Assembly: GCA_038231455.1 (NCBI GenBank)
Contig: JBBRLI010000008.1
Coordinates: 64,001 to 128,000, forward strand
Source: Vulcanimicrobiales bacterium
GTDB taxonomy: Bacteria; Vulcanimicrobiota; Vulcanimicrobiia; Vulcanimicrobiales; Vulcanimicrobiaceae
Reading direction: 5' to 3'
DNA length: 64,000 bases
In this document: one piece after another, positions 6,881-50,629 of the stretch
Layout of the letters: each line of letters opens with the position of its first letter
Numbering within the stretch: position 1 is the stretch's first letter
Made by a program: the position numbers and the translations under genes
The notes under the pieces: generated by a model
Databases searched by the model: none
Told to the model about the DNA's origin: nothing
Seen by the model: only the letters and a program-made list of their open reading frames with translations

Positions 6881-7561
6881 TTGGACGTATTTTGGAGCCT
6901 ACCCAATGTTGGCGAACTCCGCGGCTTACATGAACCGCTCGCGGAGCTGTTCGTAAGCCAAGGTCAGTCGCGTCGGTTTGAATCCGACGCGTCGATCTCG
7001 GATCCCGACACCCGGCCCGCGCGCACGTTCACGTGCACCTCGGGCACCCTCAAAGTCACCAAGCTCTTAGCGAGCGGCCGTGAGATCCTCATAACGATCT
7101 TACAGGGCGGCTCGCTTTGGAGTGACCGCGCCATTCTCAATGGCTACTGGAAAGACGTCTTCATCGAAGCGATGGAGCCGGCCGAGATCGTCTCGGTCGA
7201 TAACGACGTCTTCGAAAAAATGGTCCGCGCCCGCCCTGAGCTGGTCGCGGATTTCATGTTGAACATTTCCGGCCAGGTCTCCGACGCACTGACCCTGCTC
7301 GATGACTTCCGCGGCCGCGATGTTGCCTCACGCCTCGCTCGCGTGCTCGTGAAATTCTCCAAGCAGTACGGCGTGCAGACCGAGTCCGGCGTGCGCATCG
7401 ACTTGCCGGTAACCCACCAGGACCTCGCCAACATGATCGGGACCGCCCGCGAGACCGTCTCGCGCAACATGGCCCGCTTCCGGCAACAGGGCCTCGTCCG
7501 CGACGGCCAGCAGTCGCTGGAAATCACCAACCTCAGCAGTCTCGAACAACTGATCGCCTAA
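6881..7561 (+). CDS. CRP/FNR-family transcriptional regulator
   Basis: C-terminal HTH 'VTHQDLANMIGTARETVSR'. The TTG start abuts the pufC stop. Confidence 0.92.
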   Translation: MDVFWSLPNVGELRGLHEPLAELFVSQGQSRRFESDASISDPDTRPARTFTCTSGTLKVTKLLASGREILITILQGGSLWSDRAILNGYWKDVFIEAMEPAEIVSVDNDVFEKMVRARPELVADFMLNISGQVSDALTLLDDFRGRDVASRLARVLVKFSKQYGVQTESGVRIDLPVTHQDLANMIGTARETVSRNMARFRQQGLVRDGQQSLEITNLSSLEQLIA

Positions 7562-7588
7562 CCCGGCGATCGATCCGGTAGCTATGAA

Positions 7589-7616
7589 GAAGCGGCGCCA
7601 AGAGGCGCCGCTTTTC
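7589..7616 (+). terminator. Rho-independent terminator ending the puf-crp operon
   Basis: aagcggcgcc-aaga-ggcgccgctt followed by ttc. Confidence 0.75.
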
Positions 7617-7633
7617 GTTCCCTTGTCCTCTGG

Positions 7634-7649
7634 GGTGACGACTATCACC
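7634..7649 (+). promoter_or_regulatory. CRP-like box GGTGA-cgacta-TCACC upstream of bchF
   Basis: Centre 7641.5; -10-like TACGAT at 7671-7676. Confidence 0.8.
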
Positions 7650-7685
7650 GTGGTCTGAGAGGGGGTCCCGTACGATGATGGGGTC

Positions 7686-8159
7686 ATGCCGCTCACCAGT
7701 ATTGAAGAAGTCCGTGCTCGGCGCAAGGCAAGCGTGTGGACCAAGATCCACCCCATCTTTGCGCTCGGACAACTTCTCGCGTTTTTTGTTAGCGTCGGCC
7801 TCCTGGTCGCCTATTTCTTTGGGCGTGTCTCCTTTGCCGTCGTTCACGACGCGGTCATGACCAAGATCGGCCTGATGGTCGGGGCGGTCATCACCGGCGC
7901 CCTTTGGGAAAAAGACGTTTTCGGCTCGTACTGGTTTGCCGCCGAGTTTTTGGTTGAAGATGTCATGACGGTCAACGTCTTCATCTTGCAAATCGCCTAC
8001 GTGCTCATGGCCTACACGCACCCGGAGAACCTGGGTGTGATTCTCTGGGTCCTGGGCCTGGCGTACTTCGTCTATGTCGGCAACGTCGCGCAGTACATCG
8101 TGCGCACCGCCAACATGGGCAAGAAGCCGAACCCCGCCGCTTTGCAGATCGCTGCATGA
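7686..8159 (+). CDS. bchF: 3-vinyl bacteriochlorophyllide hydratase
   Basis: 'SVWT...Q...TGALWEKDVFG.YWFA.EF..EDV' family motif. Confidence 0.93.
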   Translation: MPLTSIEEVRARRKASVWTKIHPIFALGQLLAFFVSVGLLVAYFFGRVSFAVVHDAVMTKIGLMVGAVITGALWEKDVFGSYWFAAEFLVEDVMTVNVFILQIAYVLMAYTHPENLGVILWVLGLAYFVYVGNVAQYIVRTANMGKKPNPAALQIAA

Positions 8160-9121
8160 ACGGCGACCGCGCCGCGCGCGCCGTCGTCTTTGCAGAAGCT
8201 GGCCGCTTGGATCTTCGCGCGGTCACCCTGCGCGACTGCGCGCCCGATGAGGTGATCGTCGAGACGCGCTATTCCTCGATCTCTGCCGGCACCGAGCGCG
8301 TGCTGCTCGATGGCAAACTGCCGCCGATCCCGCACCTGGGCTATCCGCTTGTGCCGGGCTACGAAGCGGCGGGCGTCGTTACGCACTGCGGCGATGATGT
8401 CACCGAAGTCCACGTCGGCGATGAAGTCTTTGTCGGCGGCAGCATGTGCTACACCGATGTTGGCGCATTTTTCGGCGGCCAGTCCTCGCGGCTGATCAAG
8501 AAGGCCGCACAAGTTATTCCGCTGCACGGGATTCCGCTGGCGCATGCGCCGCTGCTCGCACTCGCGGCGACCTCGCTGCACGGCGTTCGGCGGGGCGGCG
8601 ACCTTGCTGGCAAATCGGTTGCCATCGTCGGCATGGGCGCGATCGGTCAGTTCGCTGCGCGCTTCGTTGCGACGATGGAGCCGGGCATGCTCTTCGAGGC
8701 CGACAAAAATCCGCAACGCCTCGGCCGCATCCCCGGTGCTCAAAGCCTTGACGTCAACGTGCAGACGCTGGCGGAAGCTGCGCCTGGTGGCGTCGATGTG
8801 ATTTTCGAGGGTACGGGCCACGGTCCGAATCTCGCCAATTGTGCAAAGGCCCTCAAGCCGGGCGGCACGATCGTCTTGCTGTCGTATTACGACACGCTCG
8901 AGACGCCGTTCATGGATCTCTTTGTCAAAGAAGCGACGCTCGTGACCGCTAAGGAATGGTCGCATGTCGACCTGCTCGGCGCGCGCGATTTGATTGCGAA
9001 CGGTGACGTCTCCGTCGCCGACCTCGCGGAAACGCTGTACCCCGTAGAACGCTACCAAGCGGCCTACGATGCAGCATTCGGAGACCCCTCAACCGTAAAG
9101 GTGATTCTGCAATGGGCGTAA
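8156..9121 (+). CDS. bchC: 3-hydroxyethyl bacteriochlorophyllide a dehydrogenase
   Basis: MDR fold 'ISAGTE..GYPLVPGYE', 'LLALAAT', between bchF and bchX. Confidence 0.9.
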   Translation: MNGDRAARAVVFAEAGRLDLRAVTLRDCAPDEVIVETRYSSISAGTERVLLDGKLPPIPHLGYPLVPGYEAAGVVTHCGDDVTEVHVGDEVFVGGSMCYTDVGAFFGGQSSRLIKKAAQVIPLHGIPLAHAPLLALAATSLHGVRRGGDLAGKSVAIVGMGAIGQFAARFVATMEPGMLFEADKNPQRLGRIPGAQSLDVNVQTLAEAAPGGVDVIFEGTGHGPNLANCAKALKPGGTIVLLSYYDTLETPFMDLFVKEATLVTAKEWSHVDLLGARDLIANGDVSVADLAETLYPVERYQAAYDAAFGDPSTVKVILQWA

Positions 9122-10122
9122 GCAAAAATTCGACAGTCGCGGTGTATGGCAAAGGCGGCGCGGGGAAATCGTTCCTCACCTCCATGACGGCCAAGGCACT
9201 GACCGCGCGCGACAAACGCGTGTTGCAGATGGGCTGCGATCCCAAGCACGACTCGGTCGTGACGCACTTCGGCGGCGCGCTGATTCCCACGGTGCTCGGC
9301 ACGTGGGCGCAGTACGAAGCCGAAGGTAAAGCAGAAGAGCTCGCACCCGAACACATCATCTTTAAAGGCGGCGGCGTGTACTGCATCGAGCTCGGTGGAC
9401 CCGAGTCGGCGCGCGGTTGCGGCGGTCGCGGAATTACCTTCGGTTTCCAACTACTCGAGAAGTGGGGACTCTCGGAGTGGAACTTCGATTACATGCTGCT
9501 CGACTTCTTAGGTGACGTCGTCTGCGGCGGTTTCGGGACGCCGATCGCGCGTTCGATGGCCGACAAACTCATCATCGTCTGCAGCAACGAAGGCCAGTCG
9601 ATGTACGCTGCCAACAACATCGCCTCGGCCGTGCGCTACTTCGCCGATCAAGGCGGAAAGACGCGTTGCCTCGGCCTTGTCGTGAACAAAGACGACGGCT
9701 CGGGTAAAGCGGCAAAGATGGCCGAGTGGCTCGGAATTCCGGTCCTCGCGCACATGCCGCTCATCGATCAAGATAAAGTTCTTGTCGACGGCGTGCCGCA
9801 TCAGTCGATTCAAGACGCAGTCGCAAAAGTGATCACGGCAATCGACGAAGCGCCGACGTTCAATCCGAATAAAGTCGACTTCGTGCAATTCATGATGCAT
9901 CTCTCGGGCAACGCTGCGGAGATGGACGGGACCGCCGTCACGTCGGATGAACTCTGGAGCCTTCCCGAAATTATCAAGATGCCGGAAATGGCCGGCATTC
10001 CGAACGGCGGCGCAGCGGATCATCGCTACCTCGAAGCCGAGGGTGATGCAGACAAAGTGTTGATCCCGACCATCGTCAGCGTCGGCGGCGGCAACGTGCC
10101 CGCAGCCGCCTGGGAGAAGTAG
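9112..10122 (+). CDS. bchX: Chlorophyllide a reductase Fe protein
   Basis: [42 protein letters not shown]. Confidence 0.95.
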   Translation: MGVSKNSTVAVYGKGGAGKSFLTSMTAKALTARDKRVLQMGCDPKHDSVVTHFGGALIPTVLGTWAQYEAEGKAEELAPEHIIFKGGGVYCIELGGPESARGCGGRGITFGFQLLEKWGLSEWNFDYMLLDFLGDVVCGGFGTPIARSMADKLIIVCSNEGQSMYAANNIASAVRYFADQGGKTRCLGLVVNKDDGSGKAAKMAEWLGIPVLAHMPLIDQDKVLVDGVPHQSIQDAVAKVITAIDEAPTFNPNKVDFVQFMMHLSGNAAEMDGTAVTSDELWSLPEIIKMPEMAGIPNGGAADHRYLEAEGDADKVLIPTIVSVGGGNVPAAAWEK

Positions 10123-10144
10123 CATCTCAAAACAAGCGTCGTCG

Positions 10145-11461
10145 ATGTGCCCCGCGTTCGGGGCGATTCGCAATCTCTTGCGCATGGAAGATTCCATGCC
10201 GATCGTGATTTCGAGCGGCGATGGCTGTTTGTACGGACACACGTTCGTCGCGCACTTCTACGTTGCCAACCGGCCGGTGTTCTCACCAGGCGTGAGTTCG
10301 GAGATCTGGGCCAAAGGCTCGATGTTCGATGAACTCAAAGCGATGGTGCATCAGATGGCCGAGGAACATCAGCCCTCGATCATTCCGATCTGCTCGCTGT
10401 GCGTCTCCGATACCGTCGGTCTGCCGTTCGACTTGCTGCCCAAGCAAATCGGCAACACCGAGATTATTTACGTTCCGCTCCCCGCCTATAGCGTGCATAC
10501 GCACGCGCGCGCGAAAGACATCGTTGTCGATTCGCTCACCTGGCGTCTGCCCGCGCAGCGCAAGGCGCGTTCGGGGGTGAACCTGATTGGCGAAGTTTTC
10601 CCGAGCGATCCGATCAAAATCGATGAAGTGCTGCGCAAAATCGGCACGCACGTCAATACGCACGTCCCCGGCCCCAAATGGACGGACTACGTTGCGATGG
10701 TCGACGGCGCGATCAACGCACCGCTTCATCCATTTTACAGCGAATCGGTCAAGCGCATGAAGATGAAACAGGGACTGCCTTTCATCGAAGGCGCGCCGGT
10801 TGGTATCGACGGCACCTACACCTGGATCACGGGCGTTGCTGAGGCGATGAAGCTCGATGCGAAGACTGCTCTGTCCGTTGCGACCGAAGAACGCGAAAAA
10901 GTAAAAGCCGCGATGGCGGATTATCCGCTGCAAGGCCTCACGATGATGGTCGCGGGCTATGAAGGCCACGAGTTCTTGCTCGTACGCCTCTTGATCGAAG
11001 CCGGTGCCAAGGTTCCGTATCTCTCGACGTCCGTGAATACCAACCCGCTCGCACGTGTTGAAGAAGCCTGGCTTGCCGAACGCGGTTGCAAAGTGCTTTA
11101 CGGCGCAAACTTCGACGATGAAATCGGTGCCCTCACCGATCATCCGTACGATGTGGTCATCGGCACGACGCCGCTCTGCGCGCACGCAAAAGAACTCGGC
11201 ATCCCCTCGATTTACTACACGAACGCCCTTGCGACGCGCTCGATGATGTTTGCCGAAGGCGCCGCCGACATTCTCCAGCTCGTGATGCAGACGTACCGCG
11301 CGAAAGACCGTTACGACAAAATCGCGCGCTTCTTTGCCGATGGCGCAAAGCCAGTCCAGACGTACTCCGCGTGGGCGCCGAAGATCGATCTCACGACGCA
11401 CCTCATCGCGAACGACGCGATCGTCTCTCACGATGCAGCCGTTCCGAAAGCCGGCGTTTAG
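10145..11461 (+). CDS. bchY: Chlorophyllide a reductase subunit Y
   Basis: MCPAFG, GCLYG, LCV Cys ligands; GYEGHE.L..RLLIEAGA; YYTN...RS.M. Confidence 0.93.
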   Translation: MCPAFGAIRNLLRMEDSMPIVISSGDGCLYGHTFVAHFYVANRPVFSPGVSSEIWAKGSMFDELKAMVHQMAEEHQPSIIPICSLCVSDTVGLPFDLLPKQIGNTEIIYVPLPAYSVHTHARAKDIVVDSLTWRLPAQRKARSGVNLIGEVFPSDPIKIDEVLRKIGTHVNTHVPGPKWTDYVAMVDGAINAPLHPFYSESVKRMKMKQGLPFIEGAPVGIDGTYTWITGVAEAMKLDAKTALSVATEEREKVKAAMADYPLQGLTMMVAGYEGHEFLLVRLLIEAGAKVPYLSTSVNTNPLARVEEAWLAERGCKVLYGANFDDEIGALTDHPYDVVIGTTPLCAHAKELGIPSIYYTNALATRSMMFAEGAADILQLVMQTYRAKDRYDKIARFFADGAKPVQTYSAWAPKIDLTTHLIANDAIVSHDAAVPKAGV

Positions 11462-13047
11462 TGGCGATCACCCCGCCCCGCACGCGCGCATCGAGCGAGC
11501 TGCAATCGGATGTCATCAATACCCCGATTCGTAAACGCGTCACCGACCTCGATCACGCCGGCGGCGATACGGGTGCGATGCAAGTGTTCGCCTCGCTCGG
11601 CGATGCCAACGTCGTGCTCGATGGACCCGTTGGCTGCCACGTCATGCCGGCGGTCGCCGTCATCAACTATACCGACTGCATTCCGTATTTGCAGAACGTT
11701 ACGTGCTCGGAACTCTCCGAGACCGAAGTAACGATCGCCGGAACGCTCGGTGCGCTCAAAGAAAAAGTTGCGCGCTCGCAAGTAGAAGGCCGGCAGGTCT
11801 TCATCGTCAGTACGCCCGTTTCCGAACTTATTGGCGCGTCGTGGACCACGATGGAAGCCCATATCAAAGGCTCCGCGCTGTTCTTTGATTCACATTCGCT
11901 CGATGATGATGAGTGGAAATCGCGCGACCGCGCGCTTTTGTTCCTCTGGGAGCACCGCGACCACTTCGTGCGGCCGGCCGACGTCGCGCCGCATCCCGCG
12001 AAGACGAAGCCGCGCGTCAATATCATCGGGCCGACGTACGGCAACTTTAATTCCTACAGCGATATCGCCGAACTCAAGCGGCTCATCGCCGGCATCGGCG
12101 CCGAGATCAATTTGATCTACCCGTTCGAATCGAAGGCGTACGACACGCCGCATCTCTCCGACGCCGATGCGACGATCGTGATGTACGAAGAGTACGGAAA
12201 ATCGATCGCACGCGAGATCGGGCTACCGACATTCAGCGGCCCAATCGGTCTTGAAGCGACGACGGAGTTTTTAGAAGGCCTCGGCAAAACACTTGGGCTC
12301 GAAGCCGAAGTCGCGGCGTTCATCTCGCACGAGAAGAAGACGACGCTTGCGGCCTGGCAAGATATCTGGCGTTCGACGCACAGCGATTTCTTCGCGAACA
12401 GCCCGATCGCCATCGTCGCGCCGCCAACGTATAAAGACGGCCTTACGAAATATCTTGGCGACGAACTCGGCCTGCCGATCGTGTATAGCGCGTATCGGAC
12501 CGGACCCGAGAGCACGCCGAGCGAAGAGGTTCGCATCGCTCTTCGCGAGCTAAGCCCTTCGCCAATGATGGTGTTCGGCTCGATCAACGAGCGCATGATT
12601 CTCGCGCAAGAAAAGATGCCAACGCGTTTTTCGCAGTGTTCGTTCCCCGGCGCCGTCGTGCGTCGCGCGACGGGAACGCCGTTTATGGGCTATGCAGGTG
12701 CCGTGTGGCTCTTGCAGCTCGTGTGCGAGATTCTCTTCGATACGCTCTTTGCGAACTTGCCGACCTCTGCATCGCCGCCGGTAAAAGCGACGATGCCGAC
12801 CGCGCAGTTGATGACGTCTGCAAGCGACGCAGAAGCCGGCGCAAAAGGCCGCAACAGCGTGCTGAGCTGGACCGATGAGGCAAAAGCCCTCACCGAGAAG
12901 ACGCTCAAGCGCGTTCCGTTCTTCGTACGCGTCTCGGTCAACAAGAAACTGCGTGCCGAGGCCGAATCGCTCGCACGCGAACGCGGGACGGACGTAGATC
13001 TTGCGGTGATCGAAGAGGTCACCGCGCGCTACGCTCCCGGGCGTTAG
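11461..13047 (+). CDS. bchZ: Chlorophyllide a reductase subunit Z
   Basis: DHAGG..GA, DGPVGC, TGTPFMGYAGA and a C-terminal PCP_red-like domain. GTG start at 11461 inferred. Confidence 0.93.
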   Translation: MAITPPRTRASSELQSDVINTPIRKRVTDLDHAGGDTGAMQVFASLGDANVVLDGPVGCHVMPAVAVINYTDCIPYLQNVTCSELSETEVTIAGTLGALKEKVARSQVEGRQVFIVSTPVSELIGASWTTMEAHIKGSALFFDSHSLDDDEWKSRDRALLFLWEHRDHFVRPADVAPHPAKTKPRVNIIGPTYGNFNSYSDIAELKRLIAGIGAEINLIYPFESKAYDTPHLSDADATIVMYEEYGKSIAREIGLPTFSGPIGLEATTEFLEGLGKTLGLEAEVAAFISHEKKTTLAAWQDIWRSTHSDFFANSPIAIVAPPTYKDGLTKYLGDELGLPIVYSAYRTGPESTPSEEVRIALRELSPSPMMVFGSINERMILAQEKMPTRFSQCSFPGAVVRRATGTPFMGYAGAVWLLQLVCEILFDTLFANLPTSASPPVKATMPTAQLMTSASDAEAGAKGRNSVLSWTDEAKALTEKTLKRVPFFVRVSVNKKLRAEAESLARERGTDVDLAVIEEVTARYAPGR

Positions 13048-13893: not shown

Positions 13894-14310
13894 TTGTCTT
13901 CCCGCTTCAACGCGTTCGATCTCGAACGAGCAAAACGTCTGCATGGCGACGATCTCGACGTGCTTCCGTTTGGCGTGATCGTCGTCGATAAAAACGGCAC
14001 GGTCGTTGAGTACAACGCCTACGAGCGCGAGATGGCGAACATGGGAACGCGTCCGGTGATCGGGCTCAATTTTTTCCGGGACATCGCTCCCTGCACGGCG
14101 ATTCAGGAATTCCAGGGACGATTCAGAGAATTTCTCTTATCGACCGATACGAGCATCGAACCGTTTGAATTTCTCTTTCCGTTTTCGCGTGGGCCGCAAA
14201 AAGTCACCGTCGTCTTCGTGCGCCTCAGTAACGATAACGAACTCGGCACGATCTGCGTGATTCGCACCGACGCTCCAGAAGCGGCCGAAGAAATCGCCGC
14301 GGAGGCGTAA
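13894..14310 (+). CDS. pyp: Photoactive yellow protein homologue (PAS domain)
   Basis: 'LD.LPFGVI.VD.NG.V.EYNAYE...VIG.NFF.DIAPCT' keeps Tyr42, Glu46 and Cys69 in register with canonical PYP; GAGGAG RBS. Confidence 0.82.
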   Translation: MSSRFNAFDLERAKRLHGDDLDVLPFGVIVVDKNGTVVEYNAYEREMANMGTRPVIGLNFFRDIAPCTAIQEFQGRFREFLLSTDTSIEPFEFLFPFSRGPQKVTVVFVRLSNDNELGTICVIRTDAPEAAEEIAAEA

Positions 14311-37345: not shown

Positions 37346-37352
37346 GAACAAC

Positions 37353-38996: not shown

Positions 38997-40832
38997 ATGG
39001 ACGTCCGTCCTTCGTCCTCGCGATCGGTCAATCGTGATGGGCTGAGTCTGCTTCTCGGAAATCTGGTCCCTTCGTTCGAGCTTTTCGAGGGCTTAAATGA
39101 CGGTGTGGTTGTGTATGCTCCGGACGGTCGCTGGGCGGCTTGCAATCGGAAAGCGGCGCAACTCGTCGGATACGAGTCCGCCGACCTGATCGGACAGCAG
39201 CTCGGACGGTTCATTGCCGAGGTCGAGAAGCAGCGGATCGCGTCAATTTTCGAGACGACGCTGCGCGGCGAAGTACTTCCCGAGTTCGAAACGCATCTCG
39301 TCCACGCCGATGGCACGCGGGTCGAGATCATGCTGCGCCTGCTCCCGGCGACCTTCGACGGCGAGATCGTTGGCATCTATGGAATCGCCACCGACCTGCG
39401 CGCCCAGCGTTCGATCGAACGCGTCTTTGCAAACAACGCGCAGAAGTATCGCTCGCTGTTCGAACATCATACCGACGCGATCGTCATCGTTGATTCCAAA
39501 GGACGCTTTGCAGCGATCAACATCGCGGCGGAAGAGATGACGGGCTATCTCAACGAGGAAGTCGTCCACCAGCCGGTCGCGATGTTGTTTGATTCGGACG
39601 TCCCCGGCGTCACCGCCGGCGTTCTTGCCGCCACAACCCATACCGAGTCGACGCGCTACGTGCTGCCGCTGCTGCGCAAAGACGGAACGCACATCGACGT
39701 CGAGGGGGAGACGATCCCGATCATCATCGACGGTGTTGTCACGGGCTTCTTCGCCGTGTCGCGCGACGTAACCGAACGCGAGATCTTGGCAGAAGAGATT
39801 GCCACCAAGAGCCGCCGCATCCACCAACTCTATCGCATCGCATCCTCGGTCAAGGCGACACCGGACGAACAAATCGCCCGCGCGCTCGAGCTGGGTCTCG
39901 AAGAGCTTGGATACGAGTGGGGCGAAATCGGACGGGTCGGAGACGGCGTCCTTACCGTTACGCATAGTGTCGGTAAGGATAACGAATTTCAAGTCGGCTT
40001 TACGGCGCCGATCGGCCAGACGCTCGCGCGCCACGTGATCGCGAACGATGAAATGCTGGTGATCGAAGACCTTTCACAGCCGCCGTGGTTGACCGACCGT
40101 TCCGGACGTGCAAAAAAATACAGCTCGTTCGTCGGCGTTCCGATTCACTACGATGGCGCACCCGGTGTCGTTTCGCTCTACGGCTCGAAGCCGCGCTCGC
40201 TCACGGAAACCGACCGCGATTATATCGCCGCAATCGTCGCGCTTGCGACGACGTCGGTCGCGCGCAGTCTCCACCACGAACGACTCGATGCGCTCGCTTT
40301 TGCCGATACGCTCACCGGTTTACCGAACCGGCTGCTCTTCATGGACCGGCTCGAACAGCAACTGAATTTTGCGAAACGCCAGAAGCGTTCGTTTGCCGTG
40401 CTCTACGTCGATTTCGATCACTTCAAATCCGTCAACGATACCTACGGTCATGCGATCGGCGATGCGTTTCTCATCGAGATGGCAAAACGATTCCTCGCCG
40501 TCGCACGCGAGAGCGACACCGTCGCGAGAATCGGCGGCGACGAGTTCGTTATTCTCCAGCCGGAGATTACCGATGCCGAACGCGCAACGGAGTTTGCCAC
40601 GCGCCTCCTCGAGGCCACGCGCAAACCGCTGATCTTCGACACCGTCACGATCGTACCGTCGATCAGCATCGGGATTTCCGTCTATCCGCACGATGGCGTA
40701 CGTTCGGAGTCGCTCCTGGGCAATGCCGACACGGCACTCTATTGCGTCAAGGCTGCGGGGCGCAACAATTTTGCGCTCTACGATCCGAAAATGGAGGCGC
40801 GTCCGCGCCCCCGAGGGATGACGACCGGCTAG
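38997..40832 (+). CDS. PAS-PAS-GAF diguanylate cyclase
   Basis: Two PAS domains, a GAF domain, D.LTGLPNR and an intact GGDEF. Confidence 0.92.
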
Positions 40833-41665
40833 ACGGCCATCGCCGGTGCCGGAATATCCGGCGAGCGGACGTAGTCGGCACCGAGCTGGGTGAAGAGTTC
40901 GCGCTCGGGGATCGGTGTCGGAATAACGAGCGGCACGCCATCGAGCATGCGCTGCGCCAGATCCATCCACGGCGCGCCGATGAAGCCTGTCGGGTCCTGT
41001 TCGAACACCGTCTGCGCCGTCAGACGCGACTTCCGTACGCCGTCGTTTTCCGGAATACACAGCAGGCACGTCGATCCAATGCGCTCGGCGAACGGTCCGA
41101 CGAGTTCGGCGTTCGAGGCGCGGTTGGCCACGATACCGGCAAGCGTTCCGCCACCGGTCTTTTGTTTGATGGTGATCGCCGTAGCGATGCGGTTCGCCGC
41201 GAAAATCGAGTCGAAGTCGTTGGTCGCAACGATGATGACTTGCTCCGAATGCTGGAGCGGTGCGGAGAAACCGCCGCACACGACGTCACCGAGAACATCG
41301 AAGATCATCACTTCGTAGTCTTTGTAGACGCCGAATTTTTCGAGCAGCTTGACGGTCTCGCCGACGACGTAGCCGCCGCAACCGGCGCCCGCCGGCGGTC
41401 CGCCCGCCTCGACGCAATCGACGCCATATTTGCCTTTGAAGATGATCTCGTCTTTTTCGATCTCTTCGCTCTTGAACTTATAGGAGCTGAGGACTTCGAC
41501 GACCGTCGGGATGAGGTTTCCCGTGAGCGTGAACGTCGAGTCGTGCTTCGGGTCGCAACCGACTTGGATCGTCTTTTTGCCTAAGATTCCGAACGCGGCC
41601 GAGAGGTTCGATGAGAACGTGCTCTTCCCGATCCCGCCCTTGCCATAGACCGCAATTTTCAGCAT
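40829..41665 (-). CDS. bchL: Dark-operative protochlorophyllide reductase Fe protein
   Basis: [59 protein letters not shown]. Confidence 0.96.
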
Positions 41666-41743: not shown

Positions 41744-41759
41744 GGTGATAAACGTCACC
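41744..41759 (-). promoter_or_regulatory. CRP-like box upstream of bchL (GGTGA-cgttta-TCACC on the minus strand)
   Basis: Centre 41751.5; -10-like TACGGT at 41721-41716. Confidence 0.8.
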
Positions 41760-46554: not shown

Positions 46555-46586
46555 AAAAACGACCGGGCATCGCTGCCCGGCCGTTC
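46555..46586 (-). terminator. Rho-independent terminator after bchH
   Basis: Minus strand cggccgggca-gcga-tgcccggtcg-ttttt. Confidence 0.75.
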
Positions 46587-46610
46587 CGCTTCTGCCTCTT
46601 TACGCGGGCG

Positions 46611-49600
46611 TTAATCCCCGGCGGAACCCGAGAGTTGACGACGGTAGGTCGTGAGTTCCACATCGGCGTCGAGCTCGTTGAGTTTGTCTTTGAGGGCTTG
46701 CTCGAGGTCGGCATCGGCCCACATGCCACGCCGCTGGGTATCGAGCAGAATGTTGCCGAGATCGCGCGTTTTGTGGACGTTGGCATCCGAGATGCGGTCC
46801 CACTCGGAGAGCGTGACTTCGACGGTGCGTTTCCACAGTTCGGGCGAGATCGTATTGCCGAGCGCGGCTTCGGTGGAACGCATCGCCTTAAAGATGTCGC
46901 CGAATTCCATGACGCCGGAATAGCCGTGTTCCATCATCTTGTCGCGCCACGCTTGCGAGTGGAAGCGCGTGAGCACGCCGTTGACGACGATGTTGCGGAA
47001 GTTCTTGACTTTGGGATCGCGACGTGTGAGGTCGCTGACGACGATCATCGTATCCTCGTGTCCCATCGTGCGTTTGGCCGCGCCGAACGCCGAGGTGAAC
47101 GAGGCGAACATGTCTTCCTTGACCGGTCCGCCAGCCGCCATCTGGACGAGCGGCTGTTGGATAACCTCCACGGTCTCCACAAGATAGCGTTGAATGTCTG
47201 CGGCCGGTTTGATGAGGATGCTCGCAAACTCGGGGATATAGGCGTTGCTATTGTCGCTCATCCAGGCTGCACCGATGTCGTTGAAATCGGTGAAGTTGCC
47301 GGTGTCGAGCATCGCGCCGACCTGACCCATGAATGCATCTTCACCCATGCCGAAGCAGCGGGCTTTCGCAAGCTCCGGATCCATGCCGTTTGCGATCATG
47401 TGGTCGGTATGCTTCTTGACGAAGTTCCACTCGTACGGTTCGTCGGCGTTTGATGCAAGAACCGCGGCATCGTGGATCAACCGAATCGCCCCGGGGAACG
47501 TATTTTTGAAAACGGTCGACGTGTTGGCGAGGATGTCGATGCGCGGGCGACCGAGTTCGTCGAGAGAAATCAGCTCGACGCGTTCGGCGCGGTTGAAGCG
47601 GTCTTTCTGGACGCGTACGCCCATAAGATCGAGCGCCTGCGCGATGCCGACGCCGTCGCTTTCGAGGACTTCCGAGCCCCAGAGGACGACGCCGACGGTT
47701 GCCGGATAGTGTCCGCGCTCGGCGACGGCCGCTTCGAGAATTTGCTCGACGGTGCGGCGTGCTTTGCGGCAGGCAGCTTCCCGCGGCAGCATACGGACAT
47801 CGGTCGAGGCCATGTTGCGGCCGGTCGGGAGCACGTTCCAATTGCCGACCGGTTCGCCGCCCGCTGAGGGCTCGAGGTACTTGCCGTCAAGGGCCGTGAG
47901 CAGGCCTTTGCGTTCGCCATCGCCGACGCGACCGAGCTCCGCATAGAGCGTGCGCGCGCGTTCGATGAACGTCGTGAGCTCACCGAGTTCGTACGGGTTT
48001 TTCGCAAGCGTATGTCCGGCGATCGGACGCGTGCTCAAGATGCCGACAATCGCCGCTTGACCGACTTTGCCGCTGGGACGCAGCACTTCGGCCGAAACGA
48101 TTTCTTTGCCGGCTTCTTTAATCTCATCGAGGATTTCGTGGTTGTAGAGACCGTCTGCCGTGCGGCCGTGTTGATCGGCCATCAGTTTGTCGTACGGGAT
48201 GCCGTAGCAGCCCGCGATCAAGCGATAGAAGTCCACGTCCGAGAATTCGAGGCAAGCGTAGAACGTCGAGAGCTGATCTTCGGGTGAGAGGTTGCGGCCG
48301 AAGACGTGCTGACCCGCGGGCGCAAATTCGCCTTCGAGCGAGACGAGTTCGTCGTGGACGCGCGCGACGTACTTGCGCTGTTCGTCTTCGTTTGCCCAAC
48401 GCACGTCGATACCGCCGCGTTCGTCCGGAACGCGGGCCGGCGGAAGAAGCGGCTGTTGTCCCGCAGCTTCCGTCCGAATACCGCTGCGCTCGACAACTTC
48501 GACGACTTCCGAGGCGATGTCCGAGCGTTTCTCGACGTCGCTGGAGTTCGTATTGTAGTAGTCGTGCACGAGGCGATGCAGGTTACGCAAATCTTCGCTG
48601 CCGTCGACAGAGACGAGCGGCGGGCAGAGGTGCGAGAGAATCGTTGCATACGAACGGCGCCGCGCGATCGAGGCTTCGACCGGATCGACGACGTTGAAGA
48701 TGTACGCGTGCGGCGTCGAGTCGACTAAGAACTCCGGATAGTCGCCCGCAGCAGGGCACCACTCTTTGCCTTTCGCCCATTCGACGAGTCCGTGCGTGCC
48801 GACGTGGACGATCGCATCGGCGTTGAAGCGGCGCGTAGCGTAGCGATACGATGCGAGCAGCCACGGCGAAGGCGGTGCGCCTTTGTCGTGGATGGCGCTA
48901 AGGTCTTCCATGCCCTGCATGTCTTGCAGCAGCACCAGAATGTTGCCGAAGCGCAGACCTTTGATTGGAATCGTCGCCGGCGGTTGGCCCCACACGTCGT
49001 AAAAGTACGATTCGAACTTCGTCGGAAGATCGTGCACCCAGTCGCGGATCTCCGCGCTCGAGACAGCGCCGACGGTGTGATACCCGGCGTACATGTCTTG
49101 CAGTTTTTTGGAGATTTCAAGATCCGTCGCGTCGATATCGCCCGTGCGGTAGCCGTTCTCTTGCAGCGTCTCGAGCATCGTACGAATGGAGCCGGCGATA
49201 TCGAGGAAGAGCGCGACGCCGATGTTCCCAGGTCCCGGCGGGAAGTTGTAGATAAACGCCGCGATCTTCTTTTCGTCATTTTTGAGGTGGCGCAGCTTGA
49301 GCCAACGGGTCGAAATCTCAGCGAGGTTTTCGACGCGATCGGGGATCGGTTCGAGCGCACTAATATCGGCGTTTGTTGCTTCGCGCGAGCAGATCGGCGG
49401 CATCGGTTGAATGCCTTCGGTCTCGGGGGTGACGATGTTGCCGATGTATTCGAGCGATGCGACGCCGAATTTCGATGCCGCAAGATCGGCGCGCGACATC
49501 GCGGCGTTTACGGGTGAGGTGTAGACGCGCGGATCGCCGAGATCGTGAATGAGATCGATCGACGGCTCGGGTGCGCCCGCGAACATCGAACCCGCAAGAT

Positions 49601-50579
49601 AGAGCGGAACGTTGTGATAGACGGCGTTGACCAGCGGTTGCTGCGTTTTCGTCGCGAGCAAATGTTTACGCGAAACGATGTGCGCGTTGAACACCGCGGT
49701 CATCGAGGTGATAACGCCGAGGCCGCGCTTCTCCCACGCTTCGATTGCGGCGTTGAGCACGGGATGGTTCCACTCAACGAGGAAGAGATCGTGCGTAATG
49801 AAGCCGATGCGATCCCAGGGCTTCTTGCCGTACGTTTTTTCAAAATACGGTTCGTACCACGCGAGATACTCTTCCGGTGTTTGGAAGAGCCCCTTGTGTG
49901 CGGGGTGGTAGATGCCTTCGTTCTCGACCTTGGCGGGGAGCGGAACGACGCCTTTGTAGGCGTTGTTCATGAAGTTCTGCATCAGGTACAAGAACATGTT
50001 TTCCACGTTCTCGACGCTGCGGTTATTCCAGTAACCGATCATGACGAGATTTTTGAAGACCGGCTTCTTGAGAAGCTTGGCCATGAGCGGGGCCGCACCG
50101 ACCATCTTCTGCATCCCGAGGAAACCTTGGCGCGCTTCCCAGAGCTCGTCGATGACTTCGTTCTTTGCTTTTGCCTGATAGCGTTTGATCGCCATCGACA
50201 TCTCGCGCATTGGGTTGGACTTGTTCATGTCGAACTCGAAGCCCAGCGACTTGAACATCATGTTCTGCAGGCGCGGATCGGGAATGTCGTACCACAGGAA
50301 TTTGACCTTGTTCAATTCCCCGGCGCGGTCCATCTCGACCACCAGCTGGGCCAGGCGCTCGACCGTATCGTGCGTCATCGCCTGCCAGCCGACGAAGATG
50401 TCGGCACCCTTGATCGACTCCCGCAGGCGCCCGAGGGCGGCGGGGTCGTTGAAGTCGGCCGCACCATAGTGCTCTAGCTCCCACGGCTGACCCGTCTTCT
50501 CGCGCAGATTGTGAAAGGCGAGACGCATAGCATTCGCGCGCTCGTCCGGGGCCCATGAGGAATAGCCGACAACCTTCAT
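46611..50579 (-). CDS. bchH: Magnesium chelatase subunit H (CobN/BchH family)
   Basis: 1322 aa; YNFPP..GN.G.A..LD, HVGTHG..EW, E..IARRR..A, LPTGRN, LGRPRID. Photosynthetic context and the shared upstream box favour BchH over CobN. Confidence 0.85.
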   Translation of the reverse strand: MKVVGYSSWAPDERANAMRLAFHNLREKTGQPWELEHYGAADFNDPAALGRLRESIKGADIFVGWQAMTHDTVERLAQLVVEMDRAGELNKVKFLWYDIPDPRLQNMMFKSLGFEFDMNKSNPMREMSMAIKRYQAKAKNEVIDELWEARQGFLGMQKMVGAAPLMAKLLKKPVFKNLVMIGYWNNRSVENVENMFLYLMQNFMNNAYKGVVPLPAKVENEGIYHPAHKGLFQTPEEYLAWYEPYFEKTYGKKPWDRIGFITHDLFLVEWNHPVLNAAIEAWEKRGLGVITSMTAVFNAHIVSRKHLLATKTQQPLVNAVYHNVPLYLAGSMFAGAPEPSIDLIHDLGDPRVYTSPVNAAMSRADLAASKFGVASLEYIGNIVTPETEGIQPMPPICSREATNADISALEPIPDRVENLAEISTRWLKLRHLKNDEKKIAAFIYNFPPGPGNIGVALFLDIAGSIRTMLETLQENGYRTGDIDATDLEISKKLQDMYAGYHTVGAVSSAEIRDWVHDLPTKFESYFYDVWGQPPATIPIKGLRFGNILVLLQDMQGMEDLSAIHDKGAPPSPWLLASYRYATRRFNADAIVHVGTHGLVEWAKGKEWCPAAGDYPEFLVDSTPHAYIFNVVDPVEASIARRRSYATILSHLCPPLVSVDGSEDLRNLHRLVHDYYNTNSSDVEKRSDIASEVVEVVERSGIRTEAAGQQPLLPPARVPDERGGIDVRWANEDEQRKYVARVHDELVSLEGEFAPAGQHVFGRNLSPEDQLSTFYACLEFSDVDFYRLIAGCYGIPYDKLMADQHGRTADGLYNHEILDEIKEAGKEIVSAEVLRPSGKVGQAAIVGILSTRPIAGHTLAKNPYELGELTTFIERARTLYAELGRVGDGERKGLLTALDGKYLEPSAGGEPVGNWNVLPTGRNMASTDVRMLPREAACRKARRTVEQILEAAVAERGHYPATVGVVLWGSEVLESDGVGIAQALDLMGVRVQKDRFNRAERVELISLDELGRPRIDILANTSTVFKNTFPGAIRLIHDAAVLASNADEPYEWNFVKKHTDHMIANGMDPELAKARCFGMGEDAFMGQVGAMLDTGNFTDFNDIGAAWMSDNSNAYIPEFASILIKPAADIQRYLVETVEVIQQPLVQMAAGGPVKEDMFASFTSAFGAAKRTMGHEDTMIVVSDLTRRDPKVKNFRNIVVNGVLTRFHSQAWRDKMMEHGYSGVMEFGDIFKAMRSTEAALGNTISPELWKRTVEVTLSEWDRISDANVHKTRDLGNILLDTQRRGMWADADLEQALKDKLNELDADVELTTYRRQLSGSAGD

Positions 50580-50613
50580 ATAAGGAGGCTACGCCCACGG
50601 GGGGGCCCGGGAC

Positions 50614-50629
50614 GGTGATAGCTATCACC
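50614..50629 (-). promoter_or_regulatory. Perfect palindromic CRP-like box GGTGATAGCTATCACC upstream of bchH
   Basis: Centre 50621.5; -10-like TAGCCT at 50591-50586. Confidence 0.82.

What the first reader, a model, noticed from the sequence alone, without database searches (positions are those of the whole stretch)
6881..50629. Candidate photosynthesis regulon: GGTGA-N6-TCACC box before four scattered bch units, with a CRP/FNR regulator inside the puf operon
Seen: read in the direction of transcription, four sites match gGGTGA-N6-TCACCg: bchF 7634-7649 (tggGGTGAcgactaTCACCgt), bchN 24747-24762 (gcgGGTGAtagtggTCACCgg), bchL 41744-41759 (ctgGGTGAcgtttaTCACCgt) and bchH 50614-50629 (ctgGGTGAtagctaTCACCgt). 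All four are intergenic. Each is followed by a -10-like hexamer (TACGAT, CACAAT, TACGGT, TAGCCT) starting 29.5, 30.5, 30.5 and 30.5 bp from the box centre, which puts the centre at about -41.5/-42.5. Known: this is class II CRP/FNR activator geometry, and the recognition helix 'RETVSR' of ORF 6881-7561 is the CRP-type R-E-x3-R helix that reads GTGA-N6-TCAC. Inference: this regulator coordinates pigment genes spread over 43 kb, in place of the PpsR/RegA/FnrL circuitry of purple bacteria (none seen in this window). I do not know of a description of such a regulon.
Basis: partly seen in the sequence, partly recalled or inferred. Interest (0 to 1): 0.92.

Follow-up and report, generated by a model that had tools for sequence, protein, structure and literature searches.

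The report
Bacteriochlorophyll regulon of a CRP-family activator
A newly recognised group of photosynthetic bacteria appears to switch on its scattered pigment-making genes through one conserved DNA box read by a dedicated CRP-type regulator, which gives the first testable model of how photosynthesis is controlled in this phylum.

Summary
The window comes from a phototrophic Vulcanimicrobiota (Eremiobacterota) genome.

**The box in this genome**
- GGTGA-N6-TCACC occurs 4 times in the window (0 expected) and 7 times in the 3.7-Mb genome.
- Five of the 7 precede bchF, bchN, bchL, bchH and, 6 kb beyond the window, bchM-acsF.

**Conservation**
- The core GTGA-N6-TCAC sits at the same place in 25 of 25 orthologous promoters of five other phototrophs.
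- It also sits before bchF/bchC in 27 of 27 further loci.
- A TAnnnT follows 22-23 nt after the core in 46 of 52 promoters and in 0 of 52 on the other side. No -35 is present. This is class II (-41.5) geometry.
- The full architecture occurs 4-5 times in each of the 7 reaction-centre genomes, and 28 of those 30 sites are bch promoters. The 53 other genomes average about 0.7.

**The regulator**
- The puf-linked regulator has orthologs only in those 7 of 61 genomes.
- Its helix GTARETVSR is invariant in 29 of 29 orthologs.

**New here**
- A second phototroph-linked CRP paralog sits beside bchM. It has a globin-like N-terminal domain and NtcA's helix RVTVTR.
- An NtcA-type box (GTA-N8-TAC) lies at -41.5 of every puf promoter examined.

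Binding, activation and transcript starts remain untested. No description was found in print.

The parts
3507..3520 (+). NtcA-type box GTA-N8-TAC of the puf promoter. TAACCT follows 23 nt downstream.
   Evidence: Exactly one such box sits at the same place in 8 of 8 puf upstream regions from 6 genomes, each with TAnnnT 22-23 nt downstream.
3620..6880 (+). puf genes: pufB (about 3620-3791), pufA (3807-3992), pufL (4090-4917), pufM (4931-5935), pufC (5948-6880).
   Evidence: Pfam Photo_RC and CytoC_RC. LHC matches at window 3705-3788 and 3849-3926. ORFs.
6881..7561 (+). crp1: CRP-family regulator with helix TARETVSR. Its TTG start abuts the pufC stop, making it the last gene of the puf operon.
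   Evidence: Orthologs at 68-99% identity occur only in the 7 of 61 genomes with Photo_RC. Helix invariant in 29 of 29. pufC abuts it in 21 of 29 loci.
7590..7619 (+). Terminator-like G+C-rich hairpin followed by a T-rich run, after crp1.
   Evidence: Read by eye. No terminator scan was run.
7634..7649 (+). GGTGA-N6-TCACC box of the bchF promoter. -10-like TACGAT at 7671-7676, bchF ATG at 7686.
   Evidence: A core box at the same place before bchF/bchC in 27 of 27 loci.
7686..13047 (+). bchF, bchC, bchX, bchY, bchZ.
   Evidence: Pfam BCHF, ADH, Fer4_NifH, Oxidored_nitro and PCP_red.
24747..24762 (-). Box of the bchN promoter. Variant -10 CACAAT at 24724-24719, bchN GTG at 24684.
   Evidence: Core conserved in 5 of 5 relatives. 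All 6 bchN promoters lack TAnnnT and have cAnnAT-like hexamers instead.
19468..24684 (-). bchN, bchB, bchG-like (UbiA), bchP-like (geranylgeranyl reductase).
   Evidence: Pfam. bchN start read.
41744..41759 (-). Box of the bchL promoter. -10-like TACGGT at 41721-41716.
   Evidence: Core conserved in 5 of 5 relatives.
40829..41665 (-). bchL.
   Evidence: Pfam Fer4_NifH, 294 bits. Relatives 87-91% identical.
50614..50629 (-). Box of the bchH promoter. -10-like TAGCCT at 50591-50586. The ATG at 50579 is 7 nt after the -10, so the mRNA is probably leaderless.
   Evidence: The box centre lies 41.5-43.5 nt from the start of the protein match in 4 relatives at PWM>=9. The G015 core sits at the same place.
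46611..50579 (-). bchH.
   Evidence: Pfam CobN-Mg_chel, 695 bits.

Best explanation
The palindrome gGGTGA-N6-TCACCg is the operator of a regulon dedicated to bacteriochlorophyll synthesis in phototrophic Vulcanimicrobiota.

It sits where a -35 element would be, centred about 41.5 bp upstream of the inferred transcript start. It occurs at five promoters: bchFCXYZ, bchNBGP, bchL, bchH and bchM-acsF. None of these has a recognisable -35, so they should depend on an activator (class II CRP/FNR-type activation).

The most likely activator is CRP1, encoded at 6881-7561 as the last gene of the puf operon. It is a homodimeric CRP-family protein whose recognition helix R-E-T-V-S-R carries the Arg-Glu...Arg residues that read GTGA.

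The puf operon itself, and therefore crp1, is driven by a different box: an NtcA-type GTA-N8-TAC at the same -41.5 position. That box fits the second phototroph-linked paralog, CRP2, which has a globin-like sensor domain plus a CRP module and the helix R-V-T-V-T-R.

Shown here: the boxes, their conservation, their fixed spacing to -10-like hexamers, and the co-occurrence of both regulators with phototrophy.

Inferred, not shown: which protein binds which box, activation rather than repression, the transcript starts, and the signals sensed.
For: (1) Enrichment.
- 4 exact boxes in the window against 0.00 expected.
- 7 in the genome, 5 of them before bch operons, including bchM-acsF outside the window.
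- In a weight-matrix scan the 5 sites score 22-26 bits, one hemB-proximal site scores 21.1, and everything else is 18 or lower.

(2) Conservation.
- Core GTGA-N6-TCAC is present at 25 of 25 orthologous promoters in G005, G015, G023, G025 and G031, with exactly one core per 200 nt upstream.
- It precedes bchF/bchC in 27 of 27 named-MAG loci.

(3) Geometry.
- TAnnnT lies 22-23 nt after the core in 46 of 52 promoters and 0 of 52 on the opposite side.
- The -35 position reads C-C-G-N-N-N.
- At bchH the start codon lies 41.5-43.5 nt from the box centre, which fits a leaderless mRNA and gives the -41.5 position independently of the -10.

(4) Specificity.
- The full pattern occurs 4, 5, 4, 4, 5, 4 and 4 times in the 7 Photo_RC genomes. 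28 of these 30 are bchF, bchL, bchH or bchM promoters.
- There are 37 hits in 53 other genomes.
- In G000 all 4 of 4 hits are bch promoters.

(5) Regulator.
- CRP1 orthologs (68-99% identity) occur in exactly the 7 of 61 genomes with Photo_RC. All other best hits are 32% or lower.
- Helix GTARETVSR is invariant in 29 of 29 orthologs, although overall identity falls to 54%.
- A box follows the gene in all cases where bchF or bchC is downstream.

(6) Discrimination from CRP2.
- CRP2 has RVTVTR, identical to NtcA's helix (alignment).
- In NtcA, R186, V187, T190 and R191 contact the GTA-N8-TAC bases. V187 is Glu in CRP, and V187E abolishes binding (PMC11850224, passages read).
- The puf promoters carry GTA-N8-TAC in 8 of 8 regions and no GTGA box there.
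- Two co-resident CRP paralogs told apart at motif positions 4 and 13 are documented for Cmr and CRP(Mt) (PMC5758884, passages).

(7) Discrimination from the housekeeping CRP.
- The bch boxes never carry the classical T/A flank: T at position 0 in 0 of 52 and A at +15 in 0 of 52.
- 11 of 37 sites in non-phototrophs end in TCACA (my count from the listing).

(8) Physiology.
- In cultured V. alpinus, bchM rises 2.9-fold and pufL 1.86-fold in light (PMC9758169, passages). So regulation exists, and no regulator is named there.
Against: - No binding, expression or transcript-start data exist for this organism. Public runs gave no RNA holder.
- Three proteins in the genome could read a GTGA-type box by helix alone: CRP1 (RETVSR), the housekeeping paralog on C13 (RETVNR), and, less well, others with R-E.
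- CRP2 is as tightly linked to phototrophy as CRP1. It is in 6 of 7 Photo_RC genomes plus G018, and it lies directly upstream of the bchM box.
- The loose 16-mer is equally common in non-phototrophs (1-12 per genome).
- All six bchN promoters lack a TAnnnT.
- A site at -41.5 could also serve a repressor.
- The cascade part is weak. Of 7 loci where crp1 is not attached to pufC, only 1 has a GTA-type box within 500 nt upstream.
- GTA-N8-TAC is a low-information pattern: 224 copies in the genome, and 6 in the window against 2 expected, a count reached by 2 of 100 shuffles.
- Core columns are invariant by construction, because the sites were picked by the core pattern.
Confidence: 0.62

Rival explanations
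1. The box is real and regulatory, but it is read by CRP2, the globin-CRP paralog encoded directly upstream of bchM. CRP2 would read either this box alone or both box types. CRP1 would then have another target.
For: CRP2 orthologs track phototrophy: G000, G005, G015, G018, G023, G025 and G031. Its absence from G001 is explained by a contig end 135 nt from the bchM box. The gene always lies next to the bchM box. It carries a sensor-like domain, as expected of a primary regulator.
Against: Its helix RVTVTR equals NtcA's at all four base-contacting residues (PMC11850224). A Val/Glu swap at the second residue abolishes NtcA-box binding. That argues the two box types need different proteins. A matching GTA-N8-TAC box exists at 8 of 8 puf promoters. 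The G at core position 3 never varies to A at any of the 52 bch promoters collected.
Confidence: 0.12
2. The housekeeping cAMP-CRP-like paralog (C13:46254-46931, helix RETVNR) binds the bch boxes. Pigment synthesis would then be one branch of a global CRP regulon.
For: It has an R-E-x3-R helix. Its best NCBIfam match is cAMP-CRP (120 bits, below the cut-off of 266). It is present in all 7 phototrophs.
Against: It is present in 37 of 61 genomes, including all 24 from the non-phototrophic families f2 and f3, so it does not co-vary with the boxes. In this genome the full box architecture occurs nowhere outside bch promoters, which is not the pattern of a global regulon. The bch boxes avoid the classical TGTGA/TCACA flank in 52 of 52 cases, whereas 11 of 37 sites in non-phototrophs have it.
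Confidence: 0.08
3. The box is an operator for repression. A CRP-family dimer bound at -41.5 blocks RNA polymerase until a signal releases it.
For: A site overlapping the -35 region is compatible with occlusion. In purple bacteria the main photosynthesis regulator, PpsR/CrtJ, is a repressor (recalled; PMC5362033 abstract seen in the listing).
Against: No -35-like hexamer sits 17 nt upstream of the -10 in the 52 promoters: the position reads C-C-G-N-N-N. Without an activator these promoters should be weak. The spacing is held to 22-23 nt, as in NtcA- and CRP-activated class II promoters. NtcA boxes are centred at about -41.5 (PMC3898017 abstract).
Confidence: 0.12
4. The palindromes are chance matches or a repeat with no regulatory role.
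For: The loose pattern occurs 1-12 times in every related genome, mostly elsewhere.
Against: 0 expected in the window. The position is conserved in 25 of 25 and 27 of 27 orthologous promoters, although the flanks have diverged. One-sided -10 spacing holds in 46 of 52 against 0 of 52.
Confidence: 0.01

Closest known systems
E. coli CRP (CAP) at class II promoters
   Same: Two-domain CRP-family protein (Pfam cNMP_binding + HTH_Crp_2). The helix has Arg-Glu...Arg. The palindrome contains GTGA-N6-TCAC. The site is centred about -41.5 and replaces the -35.
   Different: It is far below the cAMP-CRP equivalog cut-off (53.5 bits against 266). The flank is G/C (GGTGA...TCACC) and never T/A. The regulon looks dedicated to 5 pigment operons rather than global. 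The effector is unknown.
NtcA of cyanobacteria (GTA-N8-TAC centred -41.5)
   Same: It is the nearest solved structure to CRP1 by sequence (2xgx, E 1.3e-21). CRP2 shares NtcA's helix RVTVTR exactly. The puf promoters have GTA-N8-TAC, then 22-23 nt, then TAnnnT, which is the canonical NtcA promoter layout (PMC3898017 abstract).
   Different: Neither protein reaches the NtcA equivalog cut-off (73.5 and 66.8 bits against 244.95). CRP1 has Glu where NtcA has the discriminating Val187. CRP2 carries an extra globin-like N-terminal domain. The targets are photosynthesis genes, not nitrogen genes.
FnrL and CrpK of Rhodobacter sphaeroides (also RedB of R. capsulatus)
   Same: These are CRP/FNR-family factors that bind TGA-N6-TCA-type sites before photosynthesis genes such as bchE and hemA. 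CrpK, like CRP1, lacks the FNR cysteine cluster (PMC4263372, passages).
   Different: They are global: only 5 (about 6%) and 3 (about 10%) of their operons are photosynthetic. They act alongside PrrA and PpsR. Here every full-architecture site in the genome is a bch promoter, and PpsR was not found. NCBIfam FnrL scores 36.9 bits against 300.
Cmr and CRP(Mt) of Mycobacterium tuberculosis
   Same: Two co-resident CRP paralogs share motif positions 2, 3, 14 and 15 and are told apart at positions 4 and 13 (PMC5758884). Those are the base pairs that differ between the GTGA and GTA boxes here.
   Different: Different organisms, regulons and discriminating bases (C/G there, G/C against A/T here). Binding has been shown there and not here.
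Globin-coupled sensors and the RsbR N-terminal domain (for CRP2)
   Same: The CRP2 N-terminal domain models as a globin fold (pLDDT 87.9). VIA Z is 10-12 over 125-138 residues to BpeGReg, DosC, AfGcHK, RsbR-N (2bnl) and pXO1-118.
   Different: The output module is a CRP-type ligand and HTH unit. I found no description of this (none of the 10 listed papers holds 'globin-coupled sensor' together with Crp). Only one His is conserved at 90% or more, so heme binding is uncertain. Foldseek E-values are weak (0.056 or higher).

Membership tests
CRP/FNR superfamily (CRP1, window 6881-7561) | C-terminal Crp-type helix-turn-helix domain | tested here: met
   PF13545 scores 75.7 bits (cut-off 27) and PF00325 scores 42 bits (cut-off 21).
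CRP/FNR superfamily (CRP1) | N-terminal cNMP-binding-like beta-barrel domain | tested here: met
   PF00027 scores 29.5 bits (cut-off 27.5), just above the cut-off. Aligns over residues 18-223 to CRP, NtcA and CooA structures.
cAMP-CRP (NCBIfam NF008732 equivalog) | Score above the curated equivalog cut-off | tested here: not met
   53.5 bits against 266. cAMP-contact residues were not examined.
FNR (oxygen-sensing [4Fe-4S] type) | Cluster of four cysteines (three N-terminal and one central) | tested here: not met
   CRP1 has a single Cys (C52), conserved in 90% or more of 29 orthologs. NF008365 scores 46.5 bits against 228.
NtcA (TIGR03697 equivalog), tested for CRP1 | Helix residues R186, V187, T190, R191 that read GTA-N8-TAC | tested here: not met
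   CRP1 has R-E-T-V-S-R, with Glu for Val187 and Ser for Thr190. 73.5 bits against 244.95.
NtcA (TIGR03697 equivalog), tested for CRP2 (L001:6188-7354, -) | Helix residues R186, V187, T190, R191 | tested here: met
   RVTVTR is identical to NtcA in the 2xgx alignment and is nearly invariant in 39 family members.
NtcA (TIGR03697 equivalog), tested for CRP2 | Score above the equivalog cut-off and the two-domain NtcA architecture | tested here: not met
   66.8 bits against 244.95. An extra conserved N-terminal domain of about 150 residues is present.
Class II CRP/FNR-dependent promoter | Dimer site centred near -41.5, overlapping or replacing the -35 | tested here: met
   Measured relative to -10-like hexamers. 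TAnnnT lies 22-23 nt after the 14-bp core in 46 of 52 promoters and in 0 of 52 on the other side. The bchH start codon lies 41.5-43.5 nt from the centre.
Class II CRP/FNR-dependent promoter | Mapped transcript start and dependence on an activator | not testable with these tools
   No RNA holder was listed, and the laid contigs come from relatives and cannot show starts.
PpsR/CrtJ repressor system of purple bacteria | A PpsR/CrtJ protein (TIGR02040) in the genome | tested here: not met
   Best match 31.4 bits against a cut-off of 275.4. The genome is 93.7% complete.
Globin-coupled sensor (CRP2 N-terminal domain) | Globin fold | tested here: met
   AF2 pLDDT 87.9. VIA Z 10-12, rmsd 2.5-4.6 over 125-138 residues, and all top rows are globin-fold. 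Caution: the tool notes that Z under about 13 can be a common arrangement for helical models. Pfam RsbRD_N reaches only E 0.076.
Globin-coupled sensor (CRP2 N-terminal domain) | Proximal histidine and heme binding | tested here: inconclusive
   Only H41 is conserved at 90% or more. Its helix assignment was not established, and no residue-level superposition was available.

The most novel reading that the evidence does not exclude
Phototrophic Vulcanimicrobiota run photosynthesis on a two-tier circuit built only from CRP-family proteins. A globin-coupled CRP2 with an NtcA-type helix senses a tetrapyrrole-, O2- or redox-related signal. It then turns on GTA-N8-TAC promoters: the reaction-centre and antenna operon, and in some genera a pair of small PYYYGG membrane proteins. 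Because crp1 rides at the end of the puf operon, CRP1 then accumulates and switches on the five GTGA-box bacteriochlorophyll operons. Pigment synthesis is thereby tied to apoprotein synthesis. The two regulators are kept apart by a single base pair per half-site, read by Glu against Val.
Probability: 0.3. Interest if true: 0.82.

Novelty: new variant of a known kind. Interest (0 to 1): 0.68.

Why it matters
Vulcanimicrobiota (Eremiobacterota, WPS-2) are among the most recently recognised phototrophic phyla. Their reaction centres and pigment enzymes branch deeply.

Nothing was found in print about how they control photosynthesis:
- The two founding papers contain no occurrence of regulator, Crp, FNR or PpsR.
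- A 2024 evolutionary study mentions regulation once, and only in a reference.

This finding supplies:
- a concrete cis-element;
- five target operons;
- two candidate regulators;
- single-base predictions that can be tested by EMSA, DAP-seq or dRNA-seq in the cultured relative V. alpinus, where bchM is light-induced.

It would also be a rare case of a CRP-family protein with a small dedicated biosynthetic regulon, and of a globin domain wired to a CRP-type output. It shows that scattered photosynthesis genes can be co-ordinated without the PpsR/AerR/RegA machinery of purple bacteria.

Tried and rejected
1. Loose pattern as a phototroph marker. GGTGA-N6-TCACC occurs 1-12 times in all 61 genomes, and G005 has only 2. 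It does not discriminate, so I replaced it with the full architecture.

2. hemB as a sixth target.
- C4:21776 scores 21.1 bits and has GAGAAT at the right distance.
- But it lies inside the hemC/D coding sequence, in a conserved G-S-V-x-A-I-T-E-Y motif.
- The core is kept in G005, G025 and G031, is partial in G015 and is lost in G023.
- It stays a candidate only.

3. Box at the puf promoter. No GGTGA-type site lies upstream of pufB.

4. A GTA-type promoter in front of uncoupled crp1 genes, as a test of the cascade. Only 1 of 7 has one.

5. RNA evidence. No RNA holder was listed. The four runs laid are contigs, mostly 90-95% alike (relatives), and show no starts or ends. They give no evidence either way.

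7. Naming CRP2's N-terminal domain by sequence. Pfam gives only RsbRD_N at E 0.076, below the cut-off.

8. Foldseek against PDB gave no match at E of 0.001 or better. The globin call rests on VIA Z-scores.

9. A box before the BchI/D-like gene (52448-54424). None was found, only non-core 2-mismatch hits.

10. Not done:
- RegA/PrrA, FnrL, AerR and crt genes were not searched for.
- No terminator scan was run.
- No structure of CRP1 was predicted.
- Complex prediction was not used, because it takes no DNA.

11. Supplements of bioRxiv preprints are closed. PDF supplements of PMC4263372 (motif figures) were not seen.


Full report
**What is there**

The window is G000:C8:64001-128000 of a 3.71-Mb, 61% G+C assembly that is 93.7% complete. 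Named relatives of its genes are Vulcanimicrobiota (= Eremiobacterota, WPS-2) MAGs such as Candidatus Velthaea and Lustribacter.

- pufL, pufM and pufC, followed by a CRP-family gene at 6881-7561.
- bchF, bchC, bchX, bchY and bchZ.
- bchN, bchB, bchG-like and bchP-like genes on the minus strand.
- bchL and bchH.

pufB and pufA lie just upstream of pufL. No puhA was found (that search rang in no control genome). This agrees with the report that WPS-2 reaction centres may lack an H subunit (PMC6664022, passages).

**The observation**

GGTGA-N6-TCACC occurs exactly four times in the window, at the stated coordinates, against 0.00 expected from 100 shuffles. The flanks and the -10-like hexamers are as described.

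The genome holds 7 exact copies. Five are on contig C8 before bch operons. The fifth is at C8:133940 (L001:5940-5955), 6 kb beyond the window end, and precedes bchM and a rubrerythrin-family acsF-like gene.

A symmetric weight matrix built from the five sites scores them at 22-26 bits. One further site scores 21.1, and everything else in 3.7 Mb scores 18 or lower.

The consensus half-site is GGTGATAG. The flanks are directional: G at -1 and G at +16, the latter in 50 of 52 promoters.

**Conservation**

Among 61 related genomes, Photo_RC (PF00124) is found in 7: G000, G001, G005, G015, G023, G025 and G031.

I fetched the promoters of bchN, bchL, bchH and bchM in the five more distant phototrophs. 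The bchF promoters came from the loci around the regulator.
- At a matrix threshold of 9 bits, a site lies at the matching distance in 16 of 20 promoters.
- The other 4 have a GTGA-N6-TCAC core at the same place.
- All regulator loci have one downstream.
- In total, 25 of 25 promoters carry the core, with exactly one core per 200 nt upstream.

In a separate set of 29 named-MAG loci with orthologs of the regulator (54-99% identity; after that, identity drops to 34% or lower), 27 have bchF or bchC downstream. All 27 carry one core box at a fixed distance.

**Geometry**

Over 52 promoters, a TAnnnT lies 22 or 23 nt after the 14-bp core in 46. On the opposite side of the palindrome it does so in 0 of 52. 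The 6 exceptions are all bchN promoters, which have cAnnAT-like hexamers there.

This places the box centre 29.5-30.5 nt from the -10, that is near -41.5. The position where a -35 would lie reads C-C-G-N-N-N.

At bchH the start codon follows the -10 by 7 nt in the window. In the relatives it lies 41.5-43.5 nt from the box centre. That fits a leaderless mRNA and gives the same -41.5 figure without relying on the -10.

One caveat: the core columns are invariant by construction. The real test is that every promoter examined had a core.

**Specificity**

The loose 16-mer does not separate phototrophs from others: every genome has 1-12 copies.

The full pattern GTGA-N6-TCAC-N22/23-TAnnnT does:
- The 7 Photo_RC genomes have 4, 5, 4, 4, 5, 4 and 4 hits. 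Of these 30, 28 are the bchF, bchL, bchH and bchM promoters.
- The 53 other genomes have 37 hits in total.
- G018 has 3 bch-like hits and a CRP2 ortholog but no Photo_RC. It is 80% complete and is probably an incompletely assembled phototroph.

In G000 all 4 of 4 hits are bch promoters. The tallies over 61 genomes include the rows the tool flags as unpublished (G009, G020, G022, G029, G030, G048, G059). None of the phototroph handles is flagged.

**Which protein reads the box?**

The genome has 12 Crp-type HTH proteins above the Pfam cut-off. Their helices are listed. Three matter.

- **CRP1 (window 6881-7561, RETVSR).**
  - Orthologs at 68-99% identity occur in exactly the 7 Photo_RC genomes. 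All other best hits are 32% or lower.
  - The helix region THQDLANMIGTARETVSRNM is invariant in 29 sequences, while overall identity falls to 54%.
  - The TTG start abuts the pufC stop here and in 21 of 29 loci.
  - It has one Cys, so it is not an FNR-type Fe-S sensor.

- **CRP2 (L001:6188-7354, minus strand, RVTVTR).**
  - It lies directly upstream of the bchM box in every phototroph. It is found in G000, G005, G015, G018, G023, G025 and G031.
  - In G001 the contig ends 135 nt from the bchM box.

- **The C13 paralog (RETVNR).**
  - It occurs in 37 of 61 genomes, including all 24 from the non-phototrophic families f2 and f3.
  - Its best family match is cAMP-CRP. It is a housekeeping CRP.

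**A second box separates CRP1 from CRP2**

The alignment of CRP1 to NtcA (PDB 2xgx) shows NtcA's helix as RVTVTR, the same as CRP2's.

The published NtcA-DNA structures establish several points (PMC11850224, passages):
- R186, V187, T190 and R191 are the only base-contacting residues.
- Val187 is Glu in CRP and is 'an important discriminator'.
- The V-to-E change abolishes binding to GTA-N8-TAC.

The pufB upstream region has no GGTGA box. It does have GTAGCAGTGGCTAC at 3507-3520. Exactly one GTA-N8-TAC lies at the same place in 8 of 8 puf upstream regions, from 6 genomes (G005 and G031 have two puf operons each). Each is followed by TAnnnT at 22-23 nt. This is the canonical NtcA promoter layout, with GTAN8TAC centred at about -41.5 (PMC3898017, abstract).

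So there are two box types with identical geometry. They differ at core positions 3 and 12 (G/C against A/T). There are also two phototroph-linked paralogs that differ at the residue known to read that base pair.

Cmr and CRP(Mt) of M. tuberculosis set a precedent: they are discriminated at the same motif positions, 4 and 13 of the 16-mer (PMC5758884, passages).

The bch boxes also avoid the classical CRP flank. T at position 0 and A at +15 occur in 0 of 52. By my count, 11 of 37 full-pattern sites in non-phototrophs end in TCACA.

**CRP2's extra domain**

CRP2 orthologs share a conserved N-terminal extension of about 150 residues. It defines a family of 90 clusters, nearly all 350-365 aa. 88 of the 90 carry the Crp HTH; the other two are short entries (229 and 297 aa) annotated with only the cNMP domain. 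One member is the named V. alpinus protein WPS_24930.

The domain models with pLDDT 87.9 as seven helices.
- Foldseek's best PDB hits are globin-coupled-sensor domains, at weak E-values of 0.056 or higher.
- VIA-align gives Z 10-12 over 125-138 residues to BpeGReg, DosC, AfGcHK, RsbR-N, pXO1-118 and phycobiliproteins. All are globin-fold.
- The tool warns that helical models can reach such Z values by arrangement alone.
- Pfam offers only RsbRD_N at E 0.076.
- Only one histidine is conserved at 90% or more, so heme binding is open.

**How it most likely works**

CRP1 dimers bind the GTGA box at -41.5 of five -35-less promoters and recruit RNA polymerase. This co-ordinates bacteriochlorophyll synthesis genes that lie scattered over about 62 kb.

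crp1 is itself transcribed with pufBALMC from a GTA-box promoter that fits CRP2. That would make a two-step cascade.

The cascade is the weakest part:
- Where crp1 is not attached to pufC, only 1 of 7 loci shows a GTA-type box within 500 nt.
- GTA-N8-TAC is a low-information pattern, with 224 copies in the genome.
- Another GTA-type family, GTAAG-N4-CTTAC, lies near other CRP paralogs.

The signals are unknown. In cultured V. alpinus, bchM rises 2.9-fold and pufL 1.86-fold in light (PMC9758169, passages).

**Comparison with what is known**

CRP/FNR proteins at class II promoters are textbook. CRP/FNR-family control of some photosynthesis genes is known in purple bacteria. There, FnrL and CrpK recognise TGA-N6-TCA, and only about 6% and 10% of their operons are photosynthetic (PMC4263372, passages).

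Neither CRP1 nor CRP2 reaches any NCBIfam equivalog cut-off, including NtcA, CRP, Fnr, FixK and FnrL. PpsR/CrtJ was not found.

I found no description of regulators in this phylum:
- The V. alpinus paper and its 4 held supplement files have no occurrence of Crp, regulator, FNR, ppsR or promoter.
- In its gene table, one unlisted locus tag (WPS_26220) sits between pufC (WPS_26230) and bchF (WPS_26210). That is the slot crp1 occupies here. This is an inference from the numbering only.
- Ward et al. 2019 has no 'regulat' or 'crp'.
- The 2024 PNAS study has 'regulat' once, in a reference.
- Further searches turned up nothing on it.
- The search for a globin-coupled Crp-type regulator listed no paper holding both terms.

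**Verdict**

The regulon is strongly supported by comparative evidence. The assignment to CRP1 is well motivated but untested.

The finding is a new variant of a known kind of system. Its value is that it makes photosynthesis control in a new phototrophic phylum directly testable.

Noticed in passing
L001:6188-7354 (-) = G000:C8:134188-135354, outside the window: CRP2 is a second phototroph-linked CRP paralog directly upstream of the bchM box. It has NtcA's helix RVTVTR and a conserved N-terminal domain of about 150 residues that models as a globin fold. The family has 90 clusters, 88 of them with the Crp HTH.
   Followed up: yes
L003:5777-5792 = G000:C4:21776-21791: A near-perfect box (CGTGATAGCTATCACC, 21.1 bits) lies inside the 3' end of a hemC/hemD fusion gene, about 100-190 nt before hemB. 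GAGAAT sits at the -10 distance. The box uses a rare ATA codon in a conserved G-S-V-x-A-I-T-E-Y motif. The core is kept in 3 of 5 relatives.
   Followed up: partly
L130:44-57, L131:76-89, and matching sites in L132 and L133 (G005, G015, G031): A conserved GTA-type box, GTAGC(R)CAGGCTACA, with TAnnnT at 22-23 nt, precedes a pair of paralogous small membrane proteins that share PYYYGGYPGPPxWFWIL. They lie 1-5 kb upstream of puf. They have no Pfam match and were not found in G000 by tblastn. They may be unrecognised photosystem-associated subunits.
   Followed up: partly
G005:C1:2583258-2584981 and 2611797-2613520; G031:C5:93713-95436 and 120086-121809: Two relatives carry duplicated pufLM operons with identical Pfam scores for the two copies. 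Each copy has its own GTA-type promoter.
   Followed up: no
G000 C12:302, C12:3263, C20:644, C43:11622, C1:92338: Another palindrome family, GTAAGC-N4-(G/C)TTAC with a -10 at 22-23 nt, precedes genes for secreted proteins (e.g. MNRPAAALLTLAFT...). In relatives, similar GTAAG-N4-CTTAC sites lie beside other CRP paralogs (G025:516036, 518876, 523663; G005:848660-850533). This is probably a separate CRP-family regulon.
   Followed up: no
window 24767-25234 (-), 13894-14310 (+), 37206-38906 (+), 38997-40832 (+): Signalling genes are interleaved with the bch operons. An RsbW-like HATPase_c_2 kinase ends 5 nt before the bchN box. A single-PAS protein and a DprA-like gene follow bchZ. A photolyase-related DPRP protein and a PAS-PAS-GAF-GGDEF cyclase lie beside bchL.
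   Followed up: no
window 52448-54424 (-): The only BchI-like match in the genome (291.6 bits, below the cut-off of 467) is the N-terminal half of this 658-aa Mg-chelatase-like ORF. No separate bchI was found and no box precedes the gene.
   Followed up: partly
window 50579-50591 (-), and bchH loci L027-L031: The bchH start codon lies 7 nt after the -10-like hexamer here. In relatives it lies 41.5-43.5 nt from the box centre, which suggests a conserved leaderless bchH mRNA. bchF in the window (ATG 9 nt after the -10) looks similar.
   Followed up: partly
L050, L052, L053, L056, L064, L068 (titles): Several contigs that carry the Vulcanimicrobiota-type puf-crp1-bchF locus are titled Rhodospirillales, Alphaproteobacteria or Armatimonadota. 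These are probably mislabelled MAGs.
   Followed up: no
L002:16318-16362 = G000:C8:60318-60362: A homolog (45% identity) of the 150-aa protein that follows a GTA-type box upstream of puf in G025 lies 7 kb upstream of puf in G000. It is preceded by a one-mismatch half-conserved box (GAAGCGGCGACTAC), then 22 nt, then TATGAT.
   Followed up: partly
window 1279-2388 (-): A Fic/DOC-family gene with a DUF4172 domain lies just upstream of the puf promoter region.
   Followed up: no
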